From positions 16,016 to 80,015 of the forward strand of contig NZ_QCZG01000013.1 in the NCBI RefSeq assembly GCF_003097615.1: 64,000 bases of DNA, given 5' to 3'. This document shows positions 22,016 to 43,441 of the stretch, piece after piece. Positions within the stretch are counted from its first letter, which is position 1. Each line of letters opens with the position of its first letter. A program made the position numbers and the translations under genes. The notes below the pieces were generated by a model. It ran no database searches. It worked only from the letters and a program-made list of their open reading frames with translations, and was not told the DNA's origin. Origin of the DNA: Pueribacillus theae (GTDB lineage: Bacteria > Bacillota > Bacilli > Bacillales > UBA6769).

Positions 22016-23131
22016 TTAATAAGGCGTGGCCTGCCAGGTGTGATAGCCCAGATTAGCCAATGTAGCGAGAATGTTGCGCGTGCCGATCGCTTTTGTGATG
22101 GGTTGGAAACCCGTAGCTAAGAGCTGGCCAGCGAGAATCCGGCGACATGCTTCTGCCGCTAATGCGCCGGTTTGCAAGTAAGGCGAATTTCCTCGCAGTA
22201 CTACATTTACGCCACCGGTGTTACCACGACCGATACAAGAGATGACCGACCGGTTGACATCTGGATTCTCCCGGGATGGTTCTTCAGGAGTGATGGTTCC
22301 GCCAATTTCATTTGTAACCTTTTCCTGCTCTTTGGCACTCAAAGAACGATACTTTTCTTCGAACTCCTCGAGTACTTTTAAAATGCCGCCGAACATGACT
22401 TCATTCTTAAAGCCCACCAACGTCGCACAGTTGGTCACCCGCTCGTCATTCTCGAACCACACCGTTTCACCGCCACCAGACCAAGGTAAAGCTTTGAATA
22501 ACCGGTGCTGATCCGGAGTCTTAACATCATATGCTTTTGCGTATGGCCACATCCGCAAGGTATTGTTTTCTAGGTAGTATTGTGGCTTGGTGCACATCCT
22601 TAGAAAAGACTTGGTAGAAGTAGTGCTGGTAGACGAGTCTGCAAAATAAAGGATATCCAACGAGTTCACACCGGGAGTTTCCAACGCTATCTCAGCCGCC
22701 ATCATTCCAGCAGTCCACATATAAGCTGAGGCCGGAGCTAAAAGTAAGGCTTTCTTGTCAAACTTCTCACCATATTGATCGCGTAAGAAGAACATCCAAT
22801 CAGTTTCGCCGGTTGAGTCAAGGTAGTGGCAATTAGCCGTCAGTGCTGCCTTTACCACAGTTTCACCGACTTGCATAAACGGCCCTACAACGTTGTAGAC
22901 CACCTTTTTTCCTGTGAACAAATCGGTTAGCGCTGCTTCCTTATGGGCCACCTCGACTACGCTATAGTCTGCGTTCTCAAGCTCGGGCACTAGGGTACAT
23001 TGCTCTTTCAAGCGAGACATACTTCTTCCAGCGGCAATGAAAGGAATCCCCAGTTCAGCCAGATGTTTCATAATCAGTTTGCCTGTATAACCACTAGCAC
23101 CATAAACAACTACGTCTTTATTTTTCATCAT
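22016..23131 (-). CDS. saccharopine-dehydrogenase-like NAD(P)-binding oxidoreductase (putative enoyl reductase)
   Basis: 371 aa with an N-terminal Rossmann motif VVYGASGYTGK. GAGGAGG RBS. Last gene of the sigma-54 operon. GC-rich codon usage. Confidence 0.65.
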   Translation of the reverse strand: MMKNKDVVVYGASGYTGKLIMKHLAELGIPFIAAGRSMSRLKEQCTLVPELENADYSVVEVAHKEAALTDLFTGKKVVYNVVGPFMQVGETVVKAALTANCHYLDSTGETDWMFFLRDQYGEKFDKKALLLAPASAYMWTAGMMAAEIALETPGVNSLDILYFADSSTSTTSTKSFLRMCTKPQYYLENNTLRMWPYAKAYDVKTPDQHRLFKALPWSGGGETVWFENDERVTNCATLVGFKNEVMFGGILKVLEEFEEKYRSLSAKEQEKVTNEIGGTITPEEPSRENPDVNRSVISCIGRGNTGGVNVVLRGNSPYLQTGALAAEACRRILAGQLLATGFQPITKAIGTRNILATLANLGYHTWQATPY

Positions 23132-23146
23132 TACTGCCTCCTCTTT

Positions 23147-24778
23147 TTAATTGTTAACACGAACGGAATCAACCCGGTCCCCTCTGCGAGAGAAAATAAC
23201 TCCCTCACCAGTATTCAGGTGTTGAACTAGAAATCTCTCTACTGGTTTCTCCGACGCTGTTTTAGGAATTTCAGCAAGTACTTGAAAGTAATCGGGATGA
23301 GGGCCTTGACCGATAACCTCGCTAACCTTAGATAGAAAGTCATCGATAACTAGTTTTCTCTTTTCATTCAACACGATAGCGGCAATCACCGTTTTTTCAC
23401 CTGGAGAGTTGCTGTCTAAGGCTACACCGTAGACATACACATCGTTAATGTCGGGATGTTTGGCCAACGCTGTCATCATGTCCTCGACAATAATGAATTC
23501 GCCGTTTCTTCTGACAGCACTGCCACCACGATAGGAGAAGTATACCCAGCCTTCTTCATCTTTGTAGCCGCAGTCTCCGCTTCGAAACCAATTCCCCTTG
23601 GTTTTCTTTTTCGATGCCTCGGGATCCTTAAAGTAGTTGACTGGGTCTGCTTTACCATCGGCATTCCTGAAGCAGATCTCACCGATATCAAAAGGTGCAC
23701 AAGGTTGATCGTGTCTATCAAGAATTTCGCACTGGATACCAGCGGGCGGTTTACCAATGGATCCTACCGGACCAACTCCGGGCGGATTGAAAGTCATCCC
23801 GCCTTCTGCAGTTCCGTAAAATTCAAATATCTTGACGTTGAAACGCCTTTCGAACTCTTCCCACATAGCCGCCGGCATGCCAGCGCTTAAAACAAAACGA
23901 ACATTATGCTGGCGTTCAGAAGGACTTTCCGGCTCGGAGAAAAGCGCTGTCGCCATGCCACCGAGCAAATTGAAAGTGGTGCATCCGTAGTGTGCGACGA
24001 TGTCCCAGAGCCGGCTTTTCGTGAATGTTCGACTAATCACAAGAGGCAGACCCAAAGTAAGGGAATACCCTAAGCTAATAAGTTGAGCATTGGCGTGGGT
24101 TAGAGACAGACCAGTGTAGGGACGGTCCTCTGGTGTCAATCCGAGAAGCGTATGCAACGCGCCCACGCTGGCGAATCGATGGTAATTGGATTGAATGGCT
24201 TTAGGATCGCCAGTGGTGCCAGAAGTAAACAGCATTTGCATAGTATCGCTTAACGGTCTAGGCTTAGCTGGGCTCGGCAATTCTTTTTCCTTGTCAATAG
24301 ATTGAAAAATATGATTTAAGGATGCAACGTAAGGGGTAGAGCAGTAATCGTTATCACTGTCTATCACCCAAGCCCACTCTAGGGGCTCTGGCCATGCCTT
24401 AAGTGCATGAATTTTACCAAGACCTTCTTCAGATACTAGCGCTCCGCGACAATCGGTGTGCAGCACCATAAACGCCAGACGTTCGGGTTGCACCCTAACA
24501 TCGATAGGCACAAAAACTGTCCCCAATATTTCCGATGCTAGCATAGCTTCAACGAACTCTGGATGGTTTCTCATCACCAAAGCAAAACGATCGCCTTCCC
24601 TCAAGCCTACATTTGCTAGTGCAGAAGCCAACATCAAACCATTGTTTAACAATTGTTCAGCGGTACGATTTTCTTCCACGAATGTGTCGTCTTCGATTGA
24701 CACGAAGGTCAGTAATAACTTGTTGGGCTCCTTTTTCGCCCAATGTTGAACGGCTCCCAAAGGAGTAAACATATTCAT
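23147..24778 (-). CDS. AMP-dependent acyl-CoA synthetase/ligase
   Basis: 543 aa with AMP-binding motifs (TSGTTGDPK, YGTAEGG, GDCGY). The start ATG lies inside copy A of the tandem duplication, with AAGGTGA 7 nt upstream. Confidence 0.8.
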   Translation of the reverse strand: MNMFTPLGAVQHWAKKEPNKLLLTFVSIEDDTFVEENRTAEQLLNNGLMLASALANVGLREGDRFALVMRNHPEFVEAMLASEILGTVFVPIDVRVQPERLAFMVLHTDCRGALVSEEGLGKIHALKAWPEPLEWAWVIDSDNDYCSTPYVASLNHIFQSIDKEKELPSPAKPRPLSDTMQMLFTSGTTGDPKAIQSNYHRFASVGALHTLLGLTPEDRPYTGLSLTHANAQLISLGYSLTLGLPLVISRTFTKSRLWDIVAHYGCTTFNLLGGMATALFSEPESPSERQHNVRFVLSAGMPAAMWEEFERRFNVKIFEFYGTAEGGMTFNPPGVGPVGSIGKPPAGIQCEILDRHDQPCAPFDIGEICFRNADGKADPVNYFKDPEASKKKTKGNWFRSGDCGYKDEEGWVYFSYRGGSAVRRNGEFIIVEDMMTALAKHPDINDVYVYGVALDSNSPGEKTVIAAIVLNEKRKLVIDDFLSKVSEVIGQGPHPDYFQVLAEIPKTASEKPVERFLVQHLNTGEGVIFSRRGDRVDSVRVNN

Positions 24779-24880
24779 GATAAAATCACCTTGACTACGA
24801 TGGCAGCGGCATCATTATCAAGCCAGTTGCCACCGTTTTCCACTAAGACGCTCTTGGCGCCTTCCGTTTTATTTTTCATA
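24650..24880. repeat. copy A of a diverged ~250-bp tandem duplication spanning the thiolase-stop/synthetase-start junction
   Basis: Aligns base-for-base (roughly 80% by eye) with 24903..25133. Both copies carry an ATGA stop/start overlap (24775-24778 and 25027-25030). Confidence 0.7.
24775..24879 (-). pseudogene. decayed duplicate of the thiolase 3' end (MKNKTEGAKSVLVENGGNWLDNDAAAIVVKVILS*)
   Basis: Homologous to the C-terminus of the intact thiolase (...VEGAKVALAENGGGWLGNDAAAIVITVLSS). It lies in copy A, and its stop overlaps the synthetase ATG. Confidence 0.6.
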
Positions 24881-24902
24881 GTTACTCCATCCCCTTTCAC
24901 AT

Positions 24903-25133
24903 GTTGACATTAATGCAACCAATTCTGTCCGCCAATGTGTCGCCTTCGAGTAACACGAAGGTTATCAGTAATCTGTTAGGATTCTTTTCCGTCAAATATT
25001 GGACTGCCCCAAAGGAGAAAATATACTCATGATGAAAGCACTGTGATTACGATGGCAGCGGCATCATTACCAAGCCAACCACCGCCATTTTCCGCTAAGG
25101 CAACCTTGGCACCTTCTACTTGACGGGCACCGG
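24903..25133. repeat. copy B of the tandem duplication
   Basis: Contains the real thiolase 3' end plus a decayed synthetase 5' fragment. Confidence 0.7.
24992..25030 (-). pseudogene. decayed duplicate of the synthetase 5' end (MSIFSPLGQSNI*)
   Basis: Homologous to the real N-terminus MNMFTPLGAVQHW. Interrupted by a stop after 12 codons. Its ATG overlaps the thiolase TGA (ATGA). Confidence 0.55.
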
Positions 25134-26226
25134 CAAGACCTCGGAGTTGTTGAGTAAGCTCAAAAATCTGCGCTAAGCCGGTGGCTCCAATAGGATGACC
25201 CTTACGAATTAAGCCTCCAGAAACACTGACAGGAATTCGCCCACCAAGTGAAGTTGCTCCATCTTCCACCAACGCGGGGCCTTCACCTTGACCACACAAC
25301 CCGAGAGCCTCGTAATACATCATTTCCGCCGGCGAAGTAGCGTCGTGAAGCTCGACGAAATCGATTTCCGCGGGATCGATCCCTGCTTGCTGATAGGCTT
25401 TTAGCGCGGTGCTTGCGGTAAGATCCGGTAAATTCTCCAAGTTGGCCCCACTGGCTAAAACCGAACTGCGAACATATACCGACGTTGTTAGACCTAGCTT
25501 TTTTGCCATTTTCGGTGAAACAAGCACAGCGGCCGCGGCACCATCGCCAAGCGGTGAACACATCGGGAGTGTCAGTGGATCGACAATGGTTCTTGCATTC
25601 ATCACATCGTCCACGCTGAGCACATTATGAAATTGCGCGTATTCGTTCAGGCTTCCGTGGTAGGAGTTTTTGGCCGCGATTTGTGCGAAGTGTCGCTTTG
25701 TAGCCCCGCTCGCGTCCATATACTTTTGGGCCATATCCGCATAAATATCCATGAACACAGAATGCCTTTGCGCACTATCCACTTTTCTCCCTAAAAATCG
25801 AGTTAAAACATCTGGGTCAGTCGTATCTGTACAGCCCATAAAAACTTGCCCCACCCGTTGCCTCTCCGGATGGTAGAGCTTTTCCACCCCGAAAGCCAGT
25901 ACCGCATCATAAGCGCCTAGTTCTACCATGGCAGCGGCTTGTTGGAATGCGGTCGAAGCGGTGGCACATGCATTTTCCACATTTATAACTGGAATTTGTT
26001 TATCATTGATGTCTTGAAGCACCACTTGGCCGTTAATACAAACTTGTCCAGTGATTAGCGGCGCACCGGCGGATCCGGCCCAGACCGCTTCAATACTTGA
26101 AAAATCAAGACCGCTGTCACTCAACGCCTGATTGATAGCAAGCAATCCCAAATCTTTGAGAGTCTTATCCGAATGATCACCGAACGGTGTCATACCTACG
26201 CCAGCAATGATCGCTTTCGTATTCAA
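25027..26226 (-). CDS. thiolase-like protein, SCP2/nonspecific-lipid-transfer-type (acetyl-CoA acetyltransferase superfamily)
   Basis: 399-aa thiolase fold (NACATASTA, HDATSPAEMM). GC-rich. Confidence 0.75.
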   Translation of the reverse strand: MNTKAIIAGVGMTPFGDHSDKTLKDLGLLAINQALSDSGLDFSSIEAVWAGSAGAPLITGQVCINGQVVLQDINDKQIPVINVENACATASTAFQQAAAMVELGAYDAVLAFGVEKLYHPERQRVGQVFMGCTDTTDPDVLTRFLGRKVDSAQRHSVFMDIYADMAQKYMDASGATKRHFAQIAAKNSYHGSLNEYAQFHNVLSVDDVMNARTIVDPLTLPMCSPLGDGAAAAVLVSPKMAKKLGLTTSVYVRSSVLASGANLENLPDLTASTALKAYQQAGIDPAEIDFVELHDATSPAEMMYYEALGLCGQGEGPALVEDGATSLGGRIPVSVSGGLIRKGHPIGATGLAQIFELTQQLRGLAGARQVEGAKVALAENGGGWLGNDAAAIVITVLSS

Positions 26227-26228
26227 GA

Positions 26229-27521
26229 CTACATCCCCGCTCTTTCAAAATCGGTCAATAGATCCCCGCCCATAATGGACAGAGCTTCATTACAGCCATC
26301 TTCAATCAATGATGATCGTGCGTCCCGGAAGATTTTTTCTACGGGATATTCCAGTGTCACCCCATTACCACCAAACAACTGTACCGCGGCACTTGCCACT
26401 TCTAGGGCGTGCTCAGTGGCAGTGATTTTTGTAAACATAGCTGCTTGTAAGGCTGGCAAACGGGAAAGCATGTTGTAACGAGCCACTCTTCGTGTTATTG
26501 CACGTGATAGTTCAACTTTCCGTGCCATGTGGAAGATTCGGCGTTTGACGTCCTGATGCTGAATGATAGGAACACCACCTTGCCTTCTTTCGTGAGCGTA
26601 ATCGTAAGCATACTCATAGGCGGCTCTAGCACAACCGGTAAACACCGCGCCCATCAAGGTGTTGGCCTCACTATGTATGGCGTACAATCCTTTTTCGTAA
26701 TCTTTAGGCTCAATCAATAAATGATCAATATCCAATTTGACATTCTCAAAAAAGATTTCCCCTTGCGGTAAAGACCGTTGACCCATTTTCTCCAGCGCGG
26801 GACCCTTTGAGACACCCGGCGCATCCAACGGAACGATTACAACCGCTCCATGGGAAGGATCCACTTTGCCGTCTTTCGTTTTCACTTGGCAATAAAGAAT
26901 AGCTAGTTCCGCGATCGGGCCATTCGATACCCAGGCAGATTTTTGACCGTTAATAATAATCTTCCCATCGGTTATTTCGGCTGAACAACCTGGTGTTCCG
27001 TAGTCTCCGCCTTTCTGGAAAGCGCGTCCTTCAGGATCTAAGCTATCCGTTCCGTGATCGGGTTCAGTAATCGCCCAGCATCCGATCAAAGATTCGTCAT
27101 ATTTTTTTGCGACAAAGTCATTGCCAAATTTCGACGCCATATAATGCGGTAAAAGATCGACGCCCGTCGAGATAGCAAGCCCTGCATCTCCATAACCCAA
27201 TTCTTCGAAGATGACGCAGAAAATATCCGGAATATCTTCCGGCGCAAATGTTGCAAGGGCTTCCACATTGATTCCGAATTGGGTGTACTGTTTTCTGAAC
27301 TCCCAAAATTGAGACTCTTCAGCAATAACTTTTTCGGCTGACAGTCTGTCTAGGGTTTGTCCAATCGGGCGCATTTTGTTTTTCGCGAAATCATTCAGTT
27401 GAGTCTGTAACGCCGATGCGGTTTCATACAGTCCTATTTCCGCCCCTAAATCACCTAGTTTTACTTTGGGGCGTGCGGGCCATTCGTTAAACGTCATGAC
27501 ATCAGATAGATTAGTACTCAA
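26229..27521 (-). CDS. acyl-CoA dehydrogenase family protein
   Basis: 430-aa ACAD fold. TTG start with AGGAGG 9 nt upstream. An alternative ATG lies at 27497. First gene downstream of the sigma-54 promoter. Confidence 0.75.
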   Translation of the reverse strand: MSTNLSDVMTFNEWPARPKVKLGDLGAEIGLYETASALQTQLNDFAKNKMRPIGQTLDRLSAEKVIAEESQFWEFRKQYTQFGINVEALATFAPEDIPDIFCVIFEELGYGDAGLAISTGVDLLPHYMASKFGNDFVAKKYDESLIGCWAITEPDHGTDSLDPEGRAFQKGGDYGTPGCSAEITDGKIIINGQKSAWVSNGPIAELAILYCQVKTKDGKVDPSHGAVVIVPLDAPGVSKGPALEKMGQRSLPQGEIFFENVKLDIDHLLIEPKDYEKGLYAIHSEANTLMGAVFTGCARAAYEYAYDYAHERRQGGVPIIQHQDVKRRIFHMARKVELSRAITRRVARYNMLSRLPALQAAMFTKITATEHALEVASAAVQLFGGNGVTLEYPVEKIFRDARSSLIEDGCNEALSIMGGDLLTDFERAGM

Positions 27522-27569
27522 AATTACTTCCTCCTTAAGAATTATTTGATTCGCTTTATTACTAAACTA

Positions 27570-27585
27570 TGCAATTCTTATGCCA
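27570..27585 (-). promoter_or_regulatory. sigma-54 (-24/-12) promoter TGGCAT-aagaa-TTGCA
   Basis: Reverse complement of tgcaattcttatgcca. Matches the consensus TGGCAC-N5-TTGCA exactly in spacing and at the GG/GC dinucleotides. Lies about 50 nt upstream of the ACAD start. Confidence 0.75.
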
Positions 27586-27603
27586 ACCTTAAAAACATCA
27601 AAA

Positions 27604-27700
27604 AGCACAGGACATAAAGAACCTGTGCTGTAAAGTAAGGTAACAAGGAACTGTCACGTTACAGTATGTGACACTGTAACAAGTTGTAACGTGACACTTT
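27604..27700 (-). promoter_or_regulatory. enhancer (UAS) region with three inverted-repeat sites
   Basis: The sites are AGCACAGG-N10-CCTGTGCT (27604-27629), TGTCACGTTACA (27652-27663) and its reverse complement TGTAACGTGACA (27685-27696). They have the TGT-N-ACA architecture of bacterial enhancer-binding protein sites, at about -40 to -140 from the sigma-54 promoter. Confidence 0.6.
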
Positions 27701-29635
27701 TTACTTTAGTTGAAATTCCTCTTTTTTTCGATAGATTGTCATGCGGGACACATTCAATAATTTTGCAGCTTGTGTTACATTCCCATTTGTCTTTTCCAGT
27801 GCTAGCATTAGCTCATTTTTCCCAATTTTAAATTTCTGCTGCGGAAAACGTTGTTTTTCATTCACTTTCTTCTTATTGGCCGGTAAGATTTCCTTTGGTA
27901 AATGTTTTGGCAAAATTTGTCTCCCGTTCGCATTAAATTTTGACTGTTCGATACAATTTTTTAACTGGCGGATGTTCCCCGGCCATTCGTACTTCATCAG
28001 TAAATCTATTGCTTCACCAGACATCTCGAATAACTTTTTTCCATTCTCAGTAAGGAAAGAGTCAACAAGTAACGGAATATCATCTTTTCTTTCGCGCAAC
28101 GGAGGGAGAGAAAGAGAAATCACATTCAACCGGTAATACAAGTCTTCCCTAAAATTCCCTTTTCTTACCTCTTCCTTTAAATTTTTATGTGTTGCGCAAA
28201 TAACCCTGACATTAATCGGAATAGGTTCTTTTGCGCCTATAGGAAAAACTTCTCTTTCTTCAAGTACCCGTAGTAGATAAACTTGTATGTCGATAGGTAA
28301 ATCAGCAATTTCGTCCAAAAAAATGGTTCCGAGGTCAGCTAACAAAAATTTCCCCTTTTTTCCTTTGGACTTAGCCCCTGTAAAGCTTCCTCCTTCATAG
28401 CCAAACAGTTCGCTGGCAATCAAATCTTTTGGGATCGCTCCACAATTTACTGCAACAAAAGGATATTCACTTCTCGGTCCAAAATAATGAATCGACTGCA
28501 CTAATACCTCTTTCCCTGTTCCGGTCTCTCCAAATATCATCATATTTTGATCACTAAAAGCTGCCTTTTTCGCTTTCTTTATCACTTTTAACATTTCTGG
28601 ATCATTCGTTACAATATTACTAAAATCTTTCTTAGCTGAATTTTTTGATAATTTTAGCAATTTATAGGGTTGCTTTTGAAAAATAACAATTCCCCCAAGC
28701 AAATTACCGCCTAGCTTGTAGGATTGAACATTTACTTTCCACAAATTATCAGCCTGCTGAAATTGTTCAATATTAAATCGTCCCAGTGATTCTAAATTTT
28801 GTACCTCTGAAAATTGTAGGATGTCATATATTGATGAACCTTCTGATATATTTAATAGATAACTAGCCGCTTTGTTACATCTAGTAACTTTTCCATTTAT
28901 GTCAAAGATCAGAAACGGATCCTGCATAAAATCTAGAAGAGATTGCAATGATAATAAGTGATCTTCCATGAGGCGATGCCCTAAAGCCTTTTCGATCTGC
29001 AAAGCCTGATTTATAACGAGATGAATATTATGCGCATGAACAAGTTCTTTCTCGCCAGTAATATTTAGAATTCCAATTATTTGATTGGTCATAGGATCTC
29101 TTATAGGTGCTGCTGAACATACCCAACGATGCCAACCTTGGCAATAGTGTTCGCTTGAAAAAATTTGAATAGGTTTTTCTTCAATTAATGCTGTCCCAAT
29201 AGCATTTGTACCTGTGCTAAGTTCATCCCAGTTACTTCCAGGTACAAAACGATGTCTTTCAACATCCATCCACATTTGGCTGTTCGATTTCGCTTCAATG
29301 ATTACTCCGGTTTTATCACATAAAACCACAGCAATTTTTTGATCAAAGAAATATTGATGAAGTTGCTCCATATATGGATTGGCAATATCTAATAAGAATT
29401 CGTTTTGTTCTATTTTTTCCTTAAGAGAATCACCTTTATATACTAAATCGGCTTCTTTCTTTAACGGATTTATAAAGCTTTGCTTACATCTTCTCCAAGA
29501 TGACAGAATAATCGGGCGCAGATCTTTAGGAAAAACATCCGAAGAATGAAAGCGCTCCCATTTTTTCATAAGAGATTTTTCTAGGGAATGGAATTCATTA
29601 AAAGCACCTACAACCATATTGCGATATTTTTTCAT
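27701..29635 (-). CDS. sigma-54-dependent Fis-family transcriptional activator (AcoR-like: N-terminal GAF/PAS sensor, AAA+ domain, C-terminal HTH)
   Basis: 644 aa with Walker A GETGTGKE, the sigma-54 contact motif GSFTGA, RERKDDI, and a C-terminal HTH (QAAKLLNVSRMTIYRK). GGAGGG RBS. This gene has lower GC than the operon it presumably controls. Confidence 0.85.
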   Translation of the reverse strand: MKKYRNMVVGAFNEFHSLEKSLMKKWERFHSSDVFPKDLRPIILSSWRRCKQSFINPLKKEADLVYKGDSLKEKIEQNEFLLDIANPYMEQLHQYFFDQKIAVVLCDKTGVIIEAKSNSQMWMDVERHRFVPGSNWDELSTGTNAIGTALIEEKPIQIFSSEHYCQGWHRWVCSAAPIRDPMTNQIIGILNITGEKELVHAHNIHLVINQALQIEKALGHRLMEDHLLSLQSLLDFMQDPFLIFDINGKVTRCNKAASYLLNISEGSSIYDILQFSEVQNLESLGRFNIEQFQQADNLWKVNVQSYKLGGNLLGGIVIFQKQPYKLLKLSKNSAKKDFSNIVTNDPEMLKVIKKAKKAAFSDQNMMIFGETGTGKEVLVQSIHYFGPRSEYPFVAVNCGAIPKDLIASELFGYEGGSFTGAKSKGKKGKFLLADLGTIFLDEIADLPIDIQVYLLRVLEEREVFPIGAKEPIPINVRVICATHKNLKEEVRKGNFREDLYYRLNVISLSLPPLRERKDDIPLLVDSFLTENGKKLFEMSGEAIDLLMKYEWPGNIRQLKNCIEQSKFNANGRQILPKHLPKEILPANKKKVNEKQRFPQQKFKIGKNELMLALEKTNGNVTQAAKLLNVSRMTIYRKKEEFQLK

Positions 29636-38284: not shown

Positions 38285-40248
38285 GTGTTTTCCACTGGAA
38301 GTCCTTGTGTTCTTTAGCAGGGGGCTTCCTTATCTTATTGATTGTCAGTATCATTCACCTTACTCAAGGACAAGCAGACTATACCTTTCAACAAATGTTT
38401 TCAGAAGTATGGATAGAAGGGCGTTTTCAGGATATTTTTCTCGGCCTTCGCCTTCCGCGTCTTGTGGTTGGGGTTTTAACCGGAGGAGCACTTGCAGTGT
38501 CAGGCGTCATCCTCCAAACATTGACGAACAATCCACTTGCATCTGCCAGTACACTTGGCATCAATGCCGGCGCCTTCTTTTTCGTCGTATTTTCGATGAT
38601 CTTTTTCCCTAACATTCTTGGCCAATATCCGTTCATTGTTGCATTGTTTGGTGCAGTTTTCTCTACATTTCTTGTTCTGACGCTTGCAGGAAAAACACTG
38701 GATCCTGTACGCGTTGCTTTAACAGGCATGATTGTGTCTTTATTATTTTCTTCTTTAACCGGAGCACTTCAATTATTGTTTGAAAATGAAACGAACGGCC
38801 TTTTTTTATGGGGATCTGGTACGCTTATTCAACTTGATTGGAACGGAATTCAATTCTCACTTCCTTTTATTGCGGTTGGTACTATTGCTGCAATTATGAT
38901 CGGCAAATCACTTGATGTGTTATCTCTTGGCGATGATATTGCAAGATCGCTTGGCCAATCAATCGTAAAAATGAAATTTTTTGCATGGGGAATTGCGGTT
39001 GGCCTTGCTGCGGTCACGGTTAGCGTTGTCGGGCCAATCGGCTTTATCGGTTTAATTGCGCCGCATATTGTTCGGCTACTCGGGATACGGGGACACCGCA
39101 ATGTCATCATCCATTCATTTTTATGGGGAAGTGTGCTTCTCATTTCCGCCGATGTACTCGCACGCTGGATTCAACCGGCCGAAGAATTTCCTGTCGGCGC
39201 GATGACAGCGCTCATTGGGGCACCATGGCTAATGTATTTGGCTTACCGTACAGCCAAGCGGCAAAAAAGAGGTGAGAAATCACTCGGCGGTACAAAAAGG
39301 CCTGTCCCCCTAAAATGGGTAATCCCTCTCATTGCTGCTGGAATTTGTACGATGTTTTTTATTTCTTTTTCTTACAGCGGCGCATCTGCCTGGTCCCCGG
39401 TTTCTGAATGGACCTCTACGATTGTGTGGAACTTTCGCATTCCGCGCGTTATTACTGCATTTGTAATTGGTGTCATGCTTGCAATTAGCGGTGTTTTGCT
39501 TCAAGGTGTCCTGCGTAATCCTTTAGCTGATGCAAGTGTGCTTGGGATTACTTCAATGGGCGGAGCAGGCGCGATGACATTGCTCATTCTTTTGCCTGTC
39601 CTCTCTTATTCTTGGATGCCAATAGGCGCCATCATTGGTTCTGCCCTGGCGATCGCAATCATTATAGTCATCTCTAGGAAGAACAACTTTCAGCCGATCC
39701 TAGTCGCATTGATAGGAATTTCTGTTTCTGCTTTCGGCTCAGCCTTGATTCAGATCATGATTGTAAAATCAAGGCTTGTTGTTGCAGCAGCGTTAGTGTG
39801 GCTCTCTGGAAGCACCTACGCGAAAGGATGGGAAGATGTATCACTTATTCTTATTCTCTCAGTCATTCTTATTCCAATTGCCCTTTATTTCACCCGTCCG
39901 CTTGATGCACTGTCTTTCGGCGATGATCTTGCCGCAAGCCATGGTCTTGTCGTTTCAAAAACACGTATTTGGTCGCTTCTTATCGGAGTTGCGTTAAGTG
40001 CAGTCGCTGTTTCGATTGTCGGAACGATTGGTTTTATCGGCCTGCTTGCGCCCCATGCCGCCCGCCGCCTAGTTGGCTACAGACATTTGCCTCTCATGCT
40101 TGTAAGCGGTCTTTTAGGCGGCTTGCTTCTCGTAACTGCTGACTTTATCAGCCGGGTAGCGCTAGCACCAAAGGAGATTCCCTCAGGGCTTATGGTTGCG
40201 TTAATTGGTACACCTTATTTGCTTTATTTATTACGAAAGATTAGATAA
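38281..40248 (+). CDS. fused two-domain FecCD-family iron-siderophore ABC permease (FhuB-like)
   Basis: 655 aa with two tandem FecCD permease halves. Overlaps the binding-protein stop by 4 nt. Confidence 0.8.
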   Translation: MSVFHWKSLCSLAGGFLILLIVSIIHLTQGQADYTFQQMFSEVWIEGRFQDIFLGLRLPRLVVGVLTGGALAVSGVILQTLTNNPLASASTLGINAGAFFFVVFSMIFFPNILGQYPFIVALFGAVFSTFLVLTLAGKTLDPVRVALTGMIVSLLFSSLTGALQLLFENETNGLFLWGSGTLIQLDWNGIQFSLPFIAVGTIAAIMIGKSLDVLSLGDDIARSLGQSIVKMKFFAWGIAVGLAAVTVSVVGPIGFIGLIAPHIVRLLGIRGHRNVIIHSFLWGSVLLISADVLARWIQPAEEFPVGAMTALIGAPWLMYLAYRTAKRQKRGEKSLGGTKRPVPLKWVIPLIAAGICTMFFISFSYSGASAWSPVSEWTSTIVWNFRIPRVITAFVIGVMLAISGVLLQGVLRNPLADASVLGITSMGGAGAMTLLILLPVLSYSWMPIGAIIGSALAIAIIIVISRKNNFQPILVALIGISVSAFGSALIQIMIVKSRLVVAAALVWLSGSTYAKGWEDVSLILILSVILIPIALYFTRPLDALSFGDDLAASHGLVVSKTRIWSLLIGVALSAVAVSIVGTIGFIGLLAPHAARRLVGYRHLPLMLVSGLLGGLLLVTADFISRVALAPKEIPSGLMVALIGTPYLLYLLRKIR

Positions 40249-42044: not shown

Positions 42045-43441
42045 AATGAATTCATGACAGAAATGGCGAAAGACGCAACTAGAATAACCGTAAGCACATA
42101 TTTTACATTCCATTGGGTAATTTCAAAGGTTTTCGTTCTAAATATGCTCCCAACTAATAAATTCGTCGCCGCAATTGGTGAAAGCAATGGCTGGATTCCC
42201 CAACATAAAATGAGAGTCAAAGCGAACAACTCTGGTTTTAAACCAACCACTTCAGGTGAGAGTGATGTCGCAAACACAAAAATTGGCAGCACTTGATGAG
42301 TAAAAAATGAAACACTTAGGCTAACAACCAAAATAATGGCAACGACCAAAACAACCGAAAGCTGGCTAATCTGTAAAAACATCTTTGATAACAAATCAGG
42401 AAAGCTTGTCAACTGAACCATTTGGGTAAAAAAAGTTGCCGCGATGATCATCACTGATTCATTGTGAATATTTGGAACAACGTTAAAAACGTAATCTTTC
42501 AAAGAATGGGTGAATGCCTTTATCTTTTTTATAAATAAAGACCAAATGATCGGATACGTAAACGCAATGAGCGCGATAAGCAACACAACATCAAAATGAA
42601 GCCATTTTTCAAGAAAAATCAACGATAAAAACAAGCCTGCAAAAACGATTAAGAGCTCAAGTCCTTTCCGGTAGCTGATCGGTTCCTTTTCAGTGGCAGT
42701 CTGTTCCGCTTCAGAAGCAGCTGCCATTTCTTGATACGCTTTCTGTTGCTTTTCTTTACGAAGGTCAAGCGAGATTAAAGCGACCGAAATCGAAAAGCAA
42801 AGCACTGCCATCATCAATCCATAACCGACAAAGGAATTGAAGCGGACACCGACAAGATGCAAAATAATCGCCACGCCTGCGAAATATGGAGACCATAGCG
42901 CTGCCAAGGAAAACCCTTGGATCATACTTTTGACAAAGATTTTTTTCATTTTGCCTAAACGCTGGAAAAATAAATCAAAAATAATCCGGACGGATCCTAA
43001 ATTAATAAATGAACTGGTAATGCCTGTCAGCGCCACAACGAGCGCAATCACTTGCATATCTTTTTTCATAAATTGGCCGATGATCTTATTGATATATCCA
43101 ATATACCCTCCGTTTTGCAGCGGATATGCGAGCAGAGGCACGGAAACAAACAAGGCGATCAATCCAACATTGTTTAAAAGCGATTCTATCCAGTAAGCCT
43201 TCGTGCCGCCATGAAGAAAAAAAAGAAAATGGCCGACAATCATCATAAGAATGCTAATGATTCTCGGCAAAGGCGCCATCCCCGGCCATGATACGAAAAA
43301 AATCAAGATAACGAACGCAATCAGCAGAAAAGTAAGTGATTCGTGAAAAAATACATTGATAATATAACCTACGGCCAACGATAGCAAAAGCAAGCCGCGT
43401 ATAAATGGCACTGAGATTCCTTGATGCTGCATGAAAAACAA
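42041..43441 (-). CDS. polytopic integral membrane protein of unknown function (466 aa, at least 10 predicted TM helices, two hydrophobic halves separated by a charged linker)
   Basis: Long hydrophobic ORF. No family confidently recognised. Lies 12 nt downstream of the CtaG-like gene. Confidence 0.55.
   Translation of the reverse strand: MFFMQHQGISVPFIRGLLLLSLAVGYIINVFFHESLTFLLIAFVILIFFVSWPGMAPLPRIISILMMIVGHFLFFLHGGTKAYWIESLLNNVGLIALFVSVPLLAYPLQNGGYIGYINKIIGQFMKKDMQVIALVVALTGITSSFINLGSVRIIFDLFFQRLGKMKKIFVKSMIQGFSLAALWSPYFAGVAIILHLVGVRFNSFVGYGLMMAVLCFSISVALISLDLRKEKQQKAYQEMAAASEAEQTATEKEPISYRKGLELLIVFAGLFLSLIFLEKWLHFDVVLLIALIAFTYPIIWSLFIKKIKAFTHSLKDYVFNVVPNIHNESVMIIAATFFTQMVQLTSFPDLLSKMFLQISQLSVVLVVAIILVVSLSVSFFTHQVLPIFVFATSLSPEVVGLKPELFALTLILCWGIQPLLSPIAATNLLVGSIFRTKTFEITQWNVKYVLTVILVASFAISVMNSF

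What the first reader, a model, noticed from the sequence alone, without database searches (positions are those of the whole stretch)
27570..27700. Complete sigma-54 promoter architecture: -24/-12 element plus three inverted-repeat enhancer sites overlapping the activator gene's 3' end
TGGCAT-aagaa-TTGCA (27585-27570, minus strand) fits the sigma-54 consensus in spacing and at the invariant GG/GC. At 20-130 nt further upstream lie AGCACAGG-N10-CCTGTGCT and the mirror pair TGTCACGTTACA / TGTAACGTGACA. These are TGT-N10-12-ACA type sites, as bound by NtrC-family activators. They sit at the very end of, and partly within, the activator's own coding sequence. This gives a testable regulatory model for the island from sequence alone.
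Basis: partly seen in the sequence, partly recalled or inferred. Interest (0 to 1): 0.55.

Follow-up and report, generated by a model that had tools for sequence, protein, structure and literature searches.

The report
Sigma-54 promoter, enhancer array, terminator

Summary
The sequence elements are all present at the stated coordinates. TTGGCAT-N5-TTGCA (27586-27570, minus strand) is the best sigma-54 promoter match in the 64-kb window. The same element occurs in 11 of 11 other independent loci that carry relatives of the 644-aa activator, including two true orthologous operons.

The TGTCACGTTACA / TGTAACGTGACA pair belongs to a 45-bp pseudo-palindrome (27696-27652) built from six TGTNACA-type units. 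Arrays of 2-6 such units lie 50-145 nt upstream of the promoter's -24 GG dinucleotide in every related locus. They are absent from 80 control loci of distant activators. This array is very probably the activator's enhancer.

Three parts of the reading fail:
- AGCACAGG-N10-CCTGTGCT followed by a T-run is an intrinsic terminator. Its sequence is not conserved, it appears as an insertion relative to the orthologues, and equivalent hairpins sit before or after the array in other loci.
- The units are not TGT-N10-12-ACA sites.
- The array starts 4 nt after the stop codon, not inside the coding sequence.

This is a new member of a known kind, of modest interest. Binding, the effector and sigma-54 dependence remain inferred.

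The parts
27701..29635 (-). Activator gene, 644 aa. Domains: GAF, weak PAS, sigma-54-interaction AAA+ domain with a GSFTGA loop, and a C-terminal Fis-type HTH (..LNVSRMTIYRK..).
   Evidence: Pfam: Sigma54_activat 2.5e-65, AAA_lid_14, HTH_8, GAF. Homologues carry MimR_N plus GAF. The GSFTGA loop and the near-invariant recognition helix are shown.
27652..27696 (-). Enhancer (UAS). A 45-bp pseudo-palindrome centred on 27674, made of six TGTNACA-type units: TGTCAC 27696-27691, GTTACA 27690-27685, TGTTACA 27681-27675, TGTCACA 27673-27667, TGTAAC 27663-27658, GTGACA 27657-27652. It spans about -137 to -93 from the predicted start site.
   Evidence: (repeat I1: 25-nt arms, 80% complementary). Conserved as an array in all 12 loci. 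The core GTTACAGTGTCACA is identical in orthologue L091.
27640..27645 (-). Possible seventh, weaker unit (TGTTAC, then C instead of A).
   Evidence: Hexamer hit counted. Not conserved in the orthologue alignment.
27591..27629 (-). Intrinsic terminator of the activator gene: 8-bp stem AGCACAGG/CCTGTGCT, 10-nt loop, tail TTTTTGATGTTTTT. It lies between the enhancer and the promoter.
   Evidence: Hairpin dG -11.9 kcal/mol with a T-rich tail. The consensus scan missed it only because its loop limit is 8. Absent at this position in orthologues L091 and L093, whose terminators lie upstream of the array.
27570..27586 (-). Sigma-54 promoter TTGGCAT-AAGAA-TTGCA. GG is at 27584-27583 and GC at 27572-27571. 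The predicted start site is near 27559.
   Evidence: Top weight-matrix hit in the window. The same element is the only match per locus in the 9 homologue loci scanned whole. It is also present upstream of both orthologous operons.
27530..27536 (-). Ribosome-binding site AAGGAGG, 8 nt before the TTG start codon at 27521.
   Evidence: Homologues at 79-83% identity cover the N-terminus, which favours the TTG start.
22016..27521 (-). Target operon: acyl-CoA dehydrogenase (27521-26229), SCP-x/lipid-transfer-type thiolase (26226-25027), acyl-CoA ligase (24778-23147), and a saccharopine-dehydrogenase-like DUF5938 protein (23131-22016).
   Evidence: Pfam and NCBIfam. The same four-gene order follows the activator in L091 and L093, and follows a LuxR-type regulator on a Pseudomonas plasmid.

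Best explanation
The 180-nt spacer between the activator gene and the acyl-CoA operon contains three different devices, in this order on the minus strand:
1. An enhancer of six TGTNACA-type units (27696-27652).
2. The activator gene's own Rho-independent terminator (27629-27591).
3. A sigma-54 -24/-12 promoter (27586-27570).

Proposed mechanism:
- The activator is made from its own upstream promoter. Its transcript stops at the terminator, so read-through does not express the operon.
- Activator subunits bind the TGTNACA array through the conserved Fis-type helix-turn-helix. Probably one HTH binds per 7-bp unit, because the spacing between units varies between loci.
- The array nucleates the AAA+ oligomer about 95-135 nt upstream of the start site.
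- A small ligand is sensed by the N-terminal MimR_N/GAF module. By analogy with relatives that sit next to acetone carboxylase and Baeyer-Villiger-type monooxygenase genes, it is probably a ketone or a related carbonyl compound.
- With ligand bound, the oligomer loops over to sigma-54 RNA polymerase held in a closed complex at TTGGCAT-N5-TTGCA. It uses ATP to open the complex, and transcription starts near 27559.

Shown: the elements, their order, their statistical uniqueness and their conservation.
Inferred: binding, stoichiometry, the effector, the start site, and the presence of sigL in the genome.
For: Activator:
- It has all the domains of a bacterial enhancer-binding protein.

Promoter:
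- It is the top-scoring site in the window with a matrix trained on other loci.
- A -24/-12 element is present in all 12 independent loci. These are the window, L081, L083-L090, L091 (L092 is the same locus) and L093 (L094 is the same locus).
- No sigma-70-like promoter was found on the minus strand between 27521 and 27700.

Enhancer:
- In each of the 9 homologue loci scanned, the strongest TGTNAC/GTNACA cluster of the whole locus lies between the activator gene and its target.
- The array centres lie 49-143 nt upstream of the -24 GG.
- The motif tracks the regulator, not the target genes. The targets are acetone carboxylase, Acyl-CoA_dh_2, an FMO-like monooxygenase, or this cassette.
- The 80 control loci of distant enhancer-binding proteins (888 kb) reach at most 5 hits per 80 bp. 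Nine of the ten family loci tested reach 7-11.
- The recognition helix VSRMT[IV]YRK is nearly invariant.

Terminator:
- dG is -11.9 kcal/mol and the hairpin has a T-tail.
- Analogous hairpins of unrelated sequence occur in the co-directional loci, upstream or downstream of the array; the one in L090 is weak (dG -6.4). The divergent locus L088 has none stronger than -5.6.
- The hairpin is an insertion relative to the orthologues.

Literature:
- Multiple enhancer sites, a regulator gene adjacent to its target, and the Firmicute consensus TTGGCATNNNNNTTGCT are typical (PMC6615313).
Against: - There are no experimental data for this organism.
- sigL is not in the window (no RpoN-box ORF), so its presence is assumed.
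- The promoter scores 17.6 bits, lower than any training site's self-score of 18.5-27.4. Self-scores are inflated.
- Only two of the six units are perfect TGTNACA. The other four are 6/7 matches fused into two 12-mers.
- The 10-nt terminator loop is longer than typical, and the T-tract is interrupted by GATG.
- The palindromic array would also fold as an RNA hairpin in the activator's 3' UTR. A role at the RNA level is therefore not excluded.
Confidence: 0.85

Rival explanations
1. One reading: all three inverted repeats, including AGCACAGG-N10-CCTGTGCT, are enhancer sites for the activator.
For: The repeat is a perfect 8-bp inverted repeat, 19-44 nt upstream of the promoter. Some enhancer-binding proteins use three sites, for example NorR (PMC2831303, listed).
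Against: - It shares no sequence with the TGTNACA units.
- It is followed directly by a T-run.
- It is absent at this position in orthologues L091 and L093.
- Other loci have hairpins of unrelated sequence with a T-run at variable positions, and the divergent locus has none comparable.
- It lies only about 5-40 nt from the -24 element, too close for a looping enhancer.
Confidence: 0.05
2. The TGTNACA array is not the activator's site. It is an operator for another regulator, such as a repressor or a global carbon-control factor. Alternatively it acts mainly as an RNA hairpin that stabilises or terminates the activator mRNA.
For: The 12-nt arms give a strong RNA hairpin. The region folds at -36.6 kcal/mol, z = -3.9. 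Palindromic TGT/ACA motifs are used by many regulator families.
Against: - The array co-occurs with this activator subfamily across unrelated target operons. In the divergent locus L088 it lies in the spacer between the divergent genes, not in a 3' UTR.
- In many loci the units are direct repeats, not hairpin-forming (L084, L089).
- It is not followed by a T-run.
- There is no Rfam match above noise.
- Distant enhancer-binding-protein loci lack it.
Confidence: 0.07
3. The -24/-12 match is fortuitous. The operon is transcribed by the housekeeping sigma factor or by read-through from the activator gene.
For: The pattern with one mismatch occurs at chance frequency in the window.
Against: - It is the top weight-matrix hit.
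- It is conserved in 12/12 loci at a consistent distance from the array.
- No sigma-70-like site lies in the spacer.
- A terminator lies immediately upstream.
Confidence: 0.03

Closest known systems
Bacillus subtilis AcoR / acoABCL sigma-L promoter and its palindromic operator
   Same: Both use a GAF-type, Fis-HTH enhancer-binding protein of Bacilli acting on a sigma-54 (SigL) promoter. In both, the enhancer is a roughly 30-45-bp palindrome built from four or more short hexamer units. The Bacillales consensus is GAGACA-N4-GAGACA-TA-TGTCTC-N4-TGTCTC (PMC10018347 text and supplement). Both respond to a small carbonyl compound; for the window activator this is inferred.
   Different: The unit sequence is GT(N)ACA / TGTNACA here, not GAGACA. 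The activator is not among AcoR's close relatives: no B. subtilis AcoR appears in the top 120 hits, and the best hits are 56% identical. The target is an acyl-CoA cassette, not acetoin dehydrogenase. Here the regulator gene lies upstream and co-directional, with its terminator between the enhancer and the promoter.
AcxR / MimR-type acetone-responsive sigma-54 activators (acetone carboxylase and mimABCD regulators)
   Same: The closest sequence relatives (46-56% identity) carry the MimR_N plus GAF N-terminus and sit next to acetone carboxylase operons with the same TGTNACA array and TTGGCAY-N5-TTGC promoter.
   Different: The window's target operon encodes no acetone carboxylase or monooxygenase. 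The effector is unknown. I found no published enhancer motif for these regulators in the searchable literature. The motif assignment is therefore from this analysis, not from a known family definition.
   Same: TGT and ACA triplets in dyad symmetry, bound by a Fis-type HTH upstream of a sigma-54 promoter. About 15 Clostridial enhancer-binding-protein groups use TGT-N10-12-ACA (PMC6615313).
   Different: The spacing is N1 (TGTNACA), with N6 and N9 composites. No N10-12 site is present. Unit-to-unit spacing varies from 7 to 26 bp between loci, which does not fit a fixed 16-bp dyad.
Rho-independent (intrinsic) terminators
   Same: A GC-containing stem followed by a U-tract, placed after a stop codon at the end of a transcription unit.
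   Different: It lies inside the enhancer-to-promoter loop of the next operon. This is compact but not unprecedented, and is also seen in L081, L087, L089 and L090.

Membership tests
Sigma-54 (-24/-12) promoter | GG and GC dinucleotides exactly 10 bp apart, within TGGCAC-N5-TTGCW | tested here: met
   TTGGCAT-AAGAA-TTGCA at 27586-27570, one mismatch (C to T). T at this position is the Firmicute consensus (PMC6615313).
Sigma-54 (-24/-12) promoter | Better than background and conserved at orthologous or paralogous positions | tested here: met
   Top weight-matrix hit in the window. Present in 12/12 loci, and the only match per locus in the 9 homologue loci scanned whole.
Sigma-54 (-24/-12) promoter | A cognate enhancer-binding protein encoded nearby | tested here: met
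   The 644-aa Sigma54_activat protein is encoded immediately upstream.
Sigma-54 (-24/-12) promoter | The genome encodes sigma-54 (sigL/rpoN), and the transcript depends on it | not testable with these tools
   No RpoN-box ORF in the 64-kb window. The rest of the genome could not be reached, and there are no expression data.
Bacterial enhancer-binding protein (activator) | AAA+ sigma-54 interaction domain with a GAFTGA-type loop | tested here: met
   PF00158 at 2.5e-65. The loop is GSFTGA, a variant reported as functional (PMC6615313).
Bacterial enhancer-binding protein (activator) | C-terminal DNA-binding HTH and an N-terminal sensory domain | tested here: met
   HTH_8 at 2.4e-10 and GAF at 7.3e-09. 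Homologues are annotated with MimR_N.
Enhancer (UAS) of this activator subfamily: TGTNACA array | Three or more TGTNACA-type units clustered 50-150 nt upstream of the -24 element, next to the regulator gene | tested here: met
   Window: six units at 27696-27652. Same in 10 of the 11 other loci; L090 has only two units. Controls are negative. This definition was derived here, not taken from the literature.
Enhancer (UAS) of this activator subfamily: TGTNACA array | Physical binding by the activator | not testable with these tools
   Needs EMSA or footprinting.
NifA/NtrC-type TGT-N10-12-ACA enhancer | [quoted passage not shown] | tested here: not met
   No TGT-N10, N11 or N12-ACA in 27635-27705. 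Only N6 (twice) and N9 (once) occur.
Bacillus AcoR operator | Palindromic array of GAGACA/TGTCTC units | tested here: not met
   No GAGACA units. The units are GT(N)ACA. The architecture is similar but the sequence differs.
Intrinsic terminator (for AGCACAGG-N10-CCTGTGCT) | A stable stem-loop immediately followed by a T-rich tract, downstream of a stop codon on the same strand | tested here: met
   8-bp stem, dG -11.9 kcal/mol, tail TTTTTGATGTTTTT, 72 nt after the stop codon.
Intrinsic terminator (for AGCACAGG-N10-CCTGTGCT) | Structure but not sequence conserved at the equivalent gene end; absent where no gene end exists | tested here: met
   The co-directional loci have hairpins of unrelated sequence (dG -9.7 to -22.6; weak in L090, -6.4). 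The divergent L088 has nothing stronger than -5.6.
Intrinsic terminator (for AGCACAGG-N10-CCTGTGCT) | RNA 3' ends map to the T-tract | not testable with these tools
   Needs 3'-end mapping or Term-seq.

The most novel reading that the evidence does not exclude
TGTNACA arrays may be the shared enhancer code of the whole MimR_N/GAF (AcxR/MimR-like) clade of sigma-54 activators. The clade would reach from Bacillota to at least one Gammaproteobacterium. Halomonas locus L011 has GTNACA-type units upstream of a TGGCAC-N5-CTGC element, next to an FMO-like monooxygenase gene. In this reading one HTH reads one 7-bp palindrome at flexible spacing, rather than a dimer reading a fixed dyad. Because the clade's other targets are ketone-attacking enzymes, the widespread and uncharacterised cassette of ACAD, thiolase, ligase and DUF5938 would then be a ketone- or keto-acid-linked catabolic module whose inducer could be found through this regulator.
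Probability: 0.45. Interest if true: 0.45.

Novelty: new member of a known kind. Interest (0 to 1): 0.3.

Why it matters
The result gives a concrete, testable regulatory map for an uncharacterised four-gene acyl-CoA cassette, with the promoter, enhancer units and insulating terminator located to the base. The cassette occurs in Bacillota, next to transposase genes in one metagenomic contig, and on a conjugative Pseudomonas plasmid.

The comparative result has practical uses. A simple TGTNACA array accompanies this activator subfamily wherever it sits. That could support regulon prediction in Bacilli. It could also support inducible sigma-54 expression cassettes or biosensors, as has been done with the AcoR operator.

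It does not change any concept of sigma-54 regulation.

Tried and rejected
- **Genome-collection scan.** The scan with the activator alignment picked generic AAA+ peptide patterns and returned only distant enhancer-binding proteins. It was useless for orthology, so I reused the 80 loci as a negative control.
- **Consensus terminator scan.** It missed the hairpin because its loop limit is 8. I replaced it with direct folding.
- **Exact TGTNACA count.** The count over the whole window is not enriched (15 against 12.7 expected). Only the clustering is significant.
- **Catabolite-control (cre) or CRP/Fnr-like reading of the 12-mers.** I considered this by eye and dropped it: the central CG and the half-sites are out of register. 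No tool test was run.
- **Clostridial AcoR motif (ATTG..CAAT).** Different from the units here.
- **Rfam scan of 27300-27900.** Only a spurious microRNA hit, 19 bits against a gathering score of 84.
- **Literature searches.** Searches for AcxR, MimR and DUF5938 enhancer or function data found nothing specific.
- **Plasmid tblastn with the ACAD.** Hits were at most 50% identical. One showed the same cassette under a LuxR-type regulator.
- **P0026 lookup.** Returned no contig.

Full report
**What is in the sequence**

All coordinates below are read on the minus strand.
- The 644-aa ORF 29635-27701 ends with TAA at 27703-27701.
- Four nucleotides later comes TGTCACGTTACA (27696-27685).
- Next are ACTT, GTTACA, G, TGTCACA and TAC, followed by TGTAACGTGACA (27663-27652).
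- After 22 nt comes AGCACAGG-N10-CCTGTGCT (27629-27604), followed directly by TTTTGATGTTTTT.
- Then come AAGG, and TTGGCAT-AAGAA-TTGCA (27586-27570).
- A 33-nt spacer follows, then AAGGAGG (27536-27530) and, 8 nt later, the TTG start codon (27521) of a 430-aa ORF.

Two details are wrong. The repeats begin after the stop codon, not within the coding sequence. None of them is a TGT-N10-12-ACA site: the 12-mers are TGT-N6-ACA and the central pair is TGT-N9-ACA.

**The genes**

The upstream ORF is a complete bacterial enhancer-binding protein. It has a GAF domain, a weak PAS domain, a sigma-54 interaction domain (2.5e-65), an AAA lid and a Fis-type HTH. Its sigma-54 contact loop is GSFTGA, a variant reported as tolerated (PMC6615313).

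The downstream genes encode four proteins:
- an acyl-CoA dehydrogenase;
- an SCP-x/lipid-transfer-type thiolase;
- an AMP-forming acyl-CoA ligase;
- a saccharopine-dehydrogenase-like DUF5938 protein.

The dehydrogenase is 100% identical to a Pueribacillus theae protein. This species belongs to the Bacillaceae.

**Is the promoter more than chance?**

The bare pattern with one mismatch occurs twice in the window against 2.5 expected, so on its own it proves nothing. Two independent lines of evidence make it convincing.

First, a weight matrix built only from the promoters of 11 related loci ranks this site first among about 128,000 positions. It scores 17.6 bits. The runner-up scores 14.5 bits and lacks the invariant dinucleotides.

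Second, the element is conserved. I retrieved the genomic context of nine activator homologues at 46-56% identity: L081 and L083-L090. I also retrieved two independent true orthologous modules with the order activator, ACAD, thiolase, ligase, DUF5938: L091/L092 and L093/L094. In these the ACAD is 82-83% identical and the activator 52-53% identical.
- All 11 other loci carry TTGGCA[CT]-N5-[TAC]TGC[AT] between the activator gene and the adjacent operon.
- In each of the nine homologue loci scanned whole (5-14 kb), it is the only match.
- No sigma-70-like promoter was found in the window's spacer.

**The enhancer**

The mirror pair is part of a larger object. It is a 45-bp pseudo-palindrome centred on 27674; one search reports 25-nt arms that are 80% complementary. 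It is made of six units of the 7-bp palindrome TGTNACA. Two units are perfect. Four match 6 of 7 positions and are fused into the two 12-mers.

Counting TGTNAC/GTNACA hexamers gives these figures:
- The region has 9 hits in 60 bp and is the only such cluster in the window. The maximum in 300 first-order Markov simulations was 5.
- In each of the nine homologue loci scanned, the strongest cluster of the whole locus lies between the activator gene and its target.
- The loci hold 2-6 perfect TGTNACA units. Their centres lie 49-143 nt upstream of the -24 GG.
- The motif follows the regulator and not the target. The targets are acetone carboxylase (L081, L086, L087, L088, L090, probably L085), an Acyl-CoA_dh_2 gene (L083, L084), an FMO-like monooxygenase (L089), or the present cassette (L091, L093).
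- The 80 loci of distant enhancer-binding proteins returned by a mis-targeted genome scan served as controls. In 888 kb the maximum was 5 hits per 80 bp, against 7-11 in nine of the ten family loci tested.
- The presumed recognition helix, VSRMT[IV]YRK, is nearly invariant in the family.
- In the three-way alignment of the window with its orthologues, the conserved blocks are exactly the units and the -24 and -12 elements. The core GTTACAGTGTCACA is identical in L091.
- There is no conservation beyond the 7-mer, and the centre-to-centre spacing varies from 7 to 26 bp.

From the variable spacing I infer that one HTH reads one unit. A dimer reading a fixed 16-bp dyad, as at NifA-type sites, does not fit.

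**The third repeat is a terminator**

AGCACAGG-N10-CCTGTGCT forms an 8-bp hairpin with dG -11.9 kcal/mol, followed by TTTTTGATGTTTTT. The consensus scan missed it only because its loop limit is 8 nt.

Three comparative facts decide the matter:
- Its sequence is unrelated to the TGTNACA units, and it appears as an insertion relative to orthologues L091 and L093.
- The co-directional loci have a hairpin of unrelated sequence with a T-run between the activator's stop codon and the promoter. It lies upstream of the array in L083-L086, L091 and L093. It lies downstream of the array in the window, L081, L087, L089 and L090. The hairpin in L090 is weak (dG -6.4).
- The one divergently arranged locus, L088, has no gene end to terminate. 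It has no hairpin stronger than -5.6 kcal/mol.

The T-tract ends 5 nt before the -24 element. That is too close for a looping activator site. The position suits an insulator that stops activator transcripts from reading into the regulated operon.

**Mechanism (inferred)**

- The activator is expressed from its own promoter. A weak sigma-70-like candidate lies at 29854-29826.
- Its mRNA ends at 27603-27591.
- The protein binds the TGTNACA array at about -137 to -93.
- A ligand sensed by the MimR_N/GAF module releases the AAA+ domain.
- The oligomer contacts sigma-54 holoenzyme at 27586-27570 by DNA looping.
- Transcription of the four-gene operon starts near 27559.

By analogy with neighbours that control acetone carboxylase and Baeyer-Villiger-type monooxygenases, the ligand is likely a small ketone or a related carbonyl compound. 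That is a guess from context.

**Comparison with known systems**

The overall design is textbook: an adjacent regulator gene, multiple upstream sites and a TTGGCAT-N5-TTGC promoter. It matches what was catalogued for Clostridiales (PMC6615313).

The nearest characterised analogue is the B. subtilis AcoR operator. That operator is a palindromic array of four GAGACA units (PMC10018347 and its supplement). The architecture is the same but the unit sequence differs. The Clostridial AcoR motif is different again.

I found no published enhancer motif for AcxR/MimR-type regulators in the searchable library. The TGTNACA assignment may therefore be new as a detail, but I cannot exclude prior description in literature that is not held.

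**Verdict**

- The promoter and the mirror-pair enhancer stand.
- The third 'enhancer' is a terminator.
- The site class and the claimed overlap with the coding sequence are wrong.
- This is a new member of a known kind, and interest is modest (0.3).
- The more interesting residue is the apparent family-wide TGTNACA code. It may reach a Halomonas locus. It also offers a handle on an uncharacterised, mobile acyl-CoA cassette.

Noticed in passing
window 24779-25026 (minus strand), between the thiolase and ligase genes: The 250-nt gap repeats the gene junction. It holds a decayed copy of the ligase 5' end (MSIFSPLGQSNI*), followed by a fragment resembling a thiolase C-terminus (..ENGGNWLDNDAAAIVVKVILS*) just before the real ligase start. 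This looks like the scar of a duplication or recombination between paralogous thiolase-ligase junctions.
   Followed up: no
L096 (Pseudomonas sp. MPC6 plasmid pMPC6-328K) 6977-12227; L093 3111-4008 and 13106-13845: The four-gene cassette (ACAD, thiolase, AMP-ligase, DUF5938) is conserved in order on a conjugative Pseudomonas plasmid. There it sits behind a LuxR-type regulator instead of a sigma-54 activator. In metagenomic contig L093 the activator-plus-cassette module lies between transposase genes (rve/HTH_Tnp_1 on one side, ISL3 on the other). The cassette therefore looks like a mobile module of unknown function whose regulator has been swapped.
   Followed up: partly
window 27701-29635 versus 26229-27521: The ACAD has a 100%-identical database entry (Pueribacillus theae) and orthologues at 79-83% identity. 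The adjacent, intact activator has no hit above 56% in the same 5.8-billion-protein collection. It is only 52-53% identical to the activators of the orthologous modules. Either the regulator evolves much faster than the enzymes, or it is missing or annotated as a pseudogene in the public record.
   Followed up: partly
window 27497-27521: The public P. theae ACAD entry is 422 aa, which implies a start at the internal ATG (27497). AAGGAGG lies 8 nt upstream of the TTG at 27521, and homologues at 79-83% identity cover the extra N-terminal residues. Both favour the 430-aa form.
   Followed up: partly
L093 6420-7000 (same sequence in L094 2350-2930): In this orthologous locus the sigma-54 promoter is followed by about 550 nt of frameshifted fragments that begin MKVIVADGSGFVSREVV.., an N-terminus that looks like a saccharopine-dehydrogenase/Rossmann fold by eye. 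This is probably a decayed first gene of the operon that the window lacks.
   Followed up: no
L011 5680-5800 (Halomonas smyrnensis, 69% GC) and L041 7320-7370: Two 'control' loci with full-length or partial AcoR-like activators (30-34% identity) also show small clusters of GTNACA/TGTNACA units. In L011 the cluster lies about 95 nt upstream of CTGGCAC-N5-CTGC and a divergent FMO-like monooxygenase gene. The motif may extend beyond Bacillota.
   Followed up: partly
window 38877-38892 (+) and 43406-43421 (+): Two other loose -24/-12 pattern matches. The first is TGGTAC.., inside a 655-aa ORF. The second lacks the -12 GC. Both are judged to be chance.
   Followed up: yes
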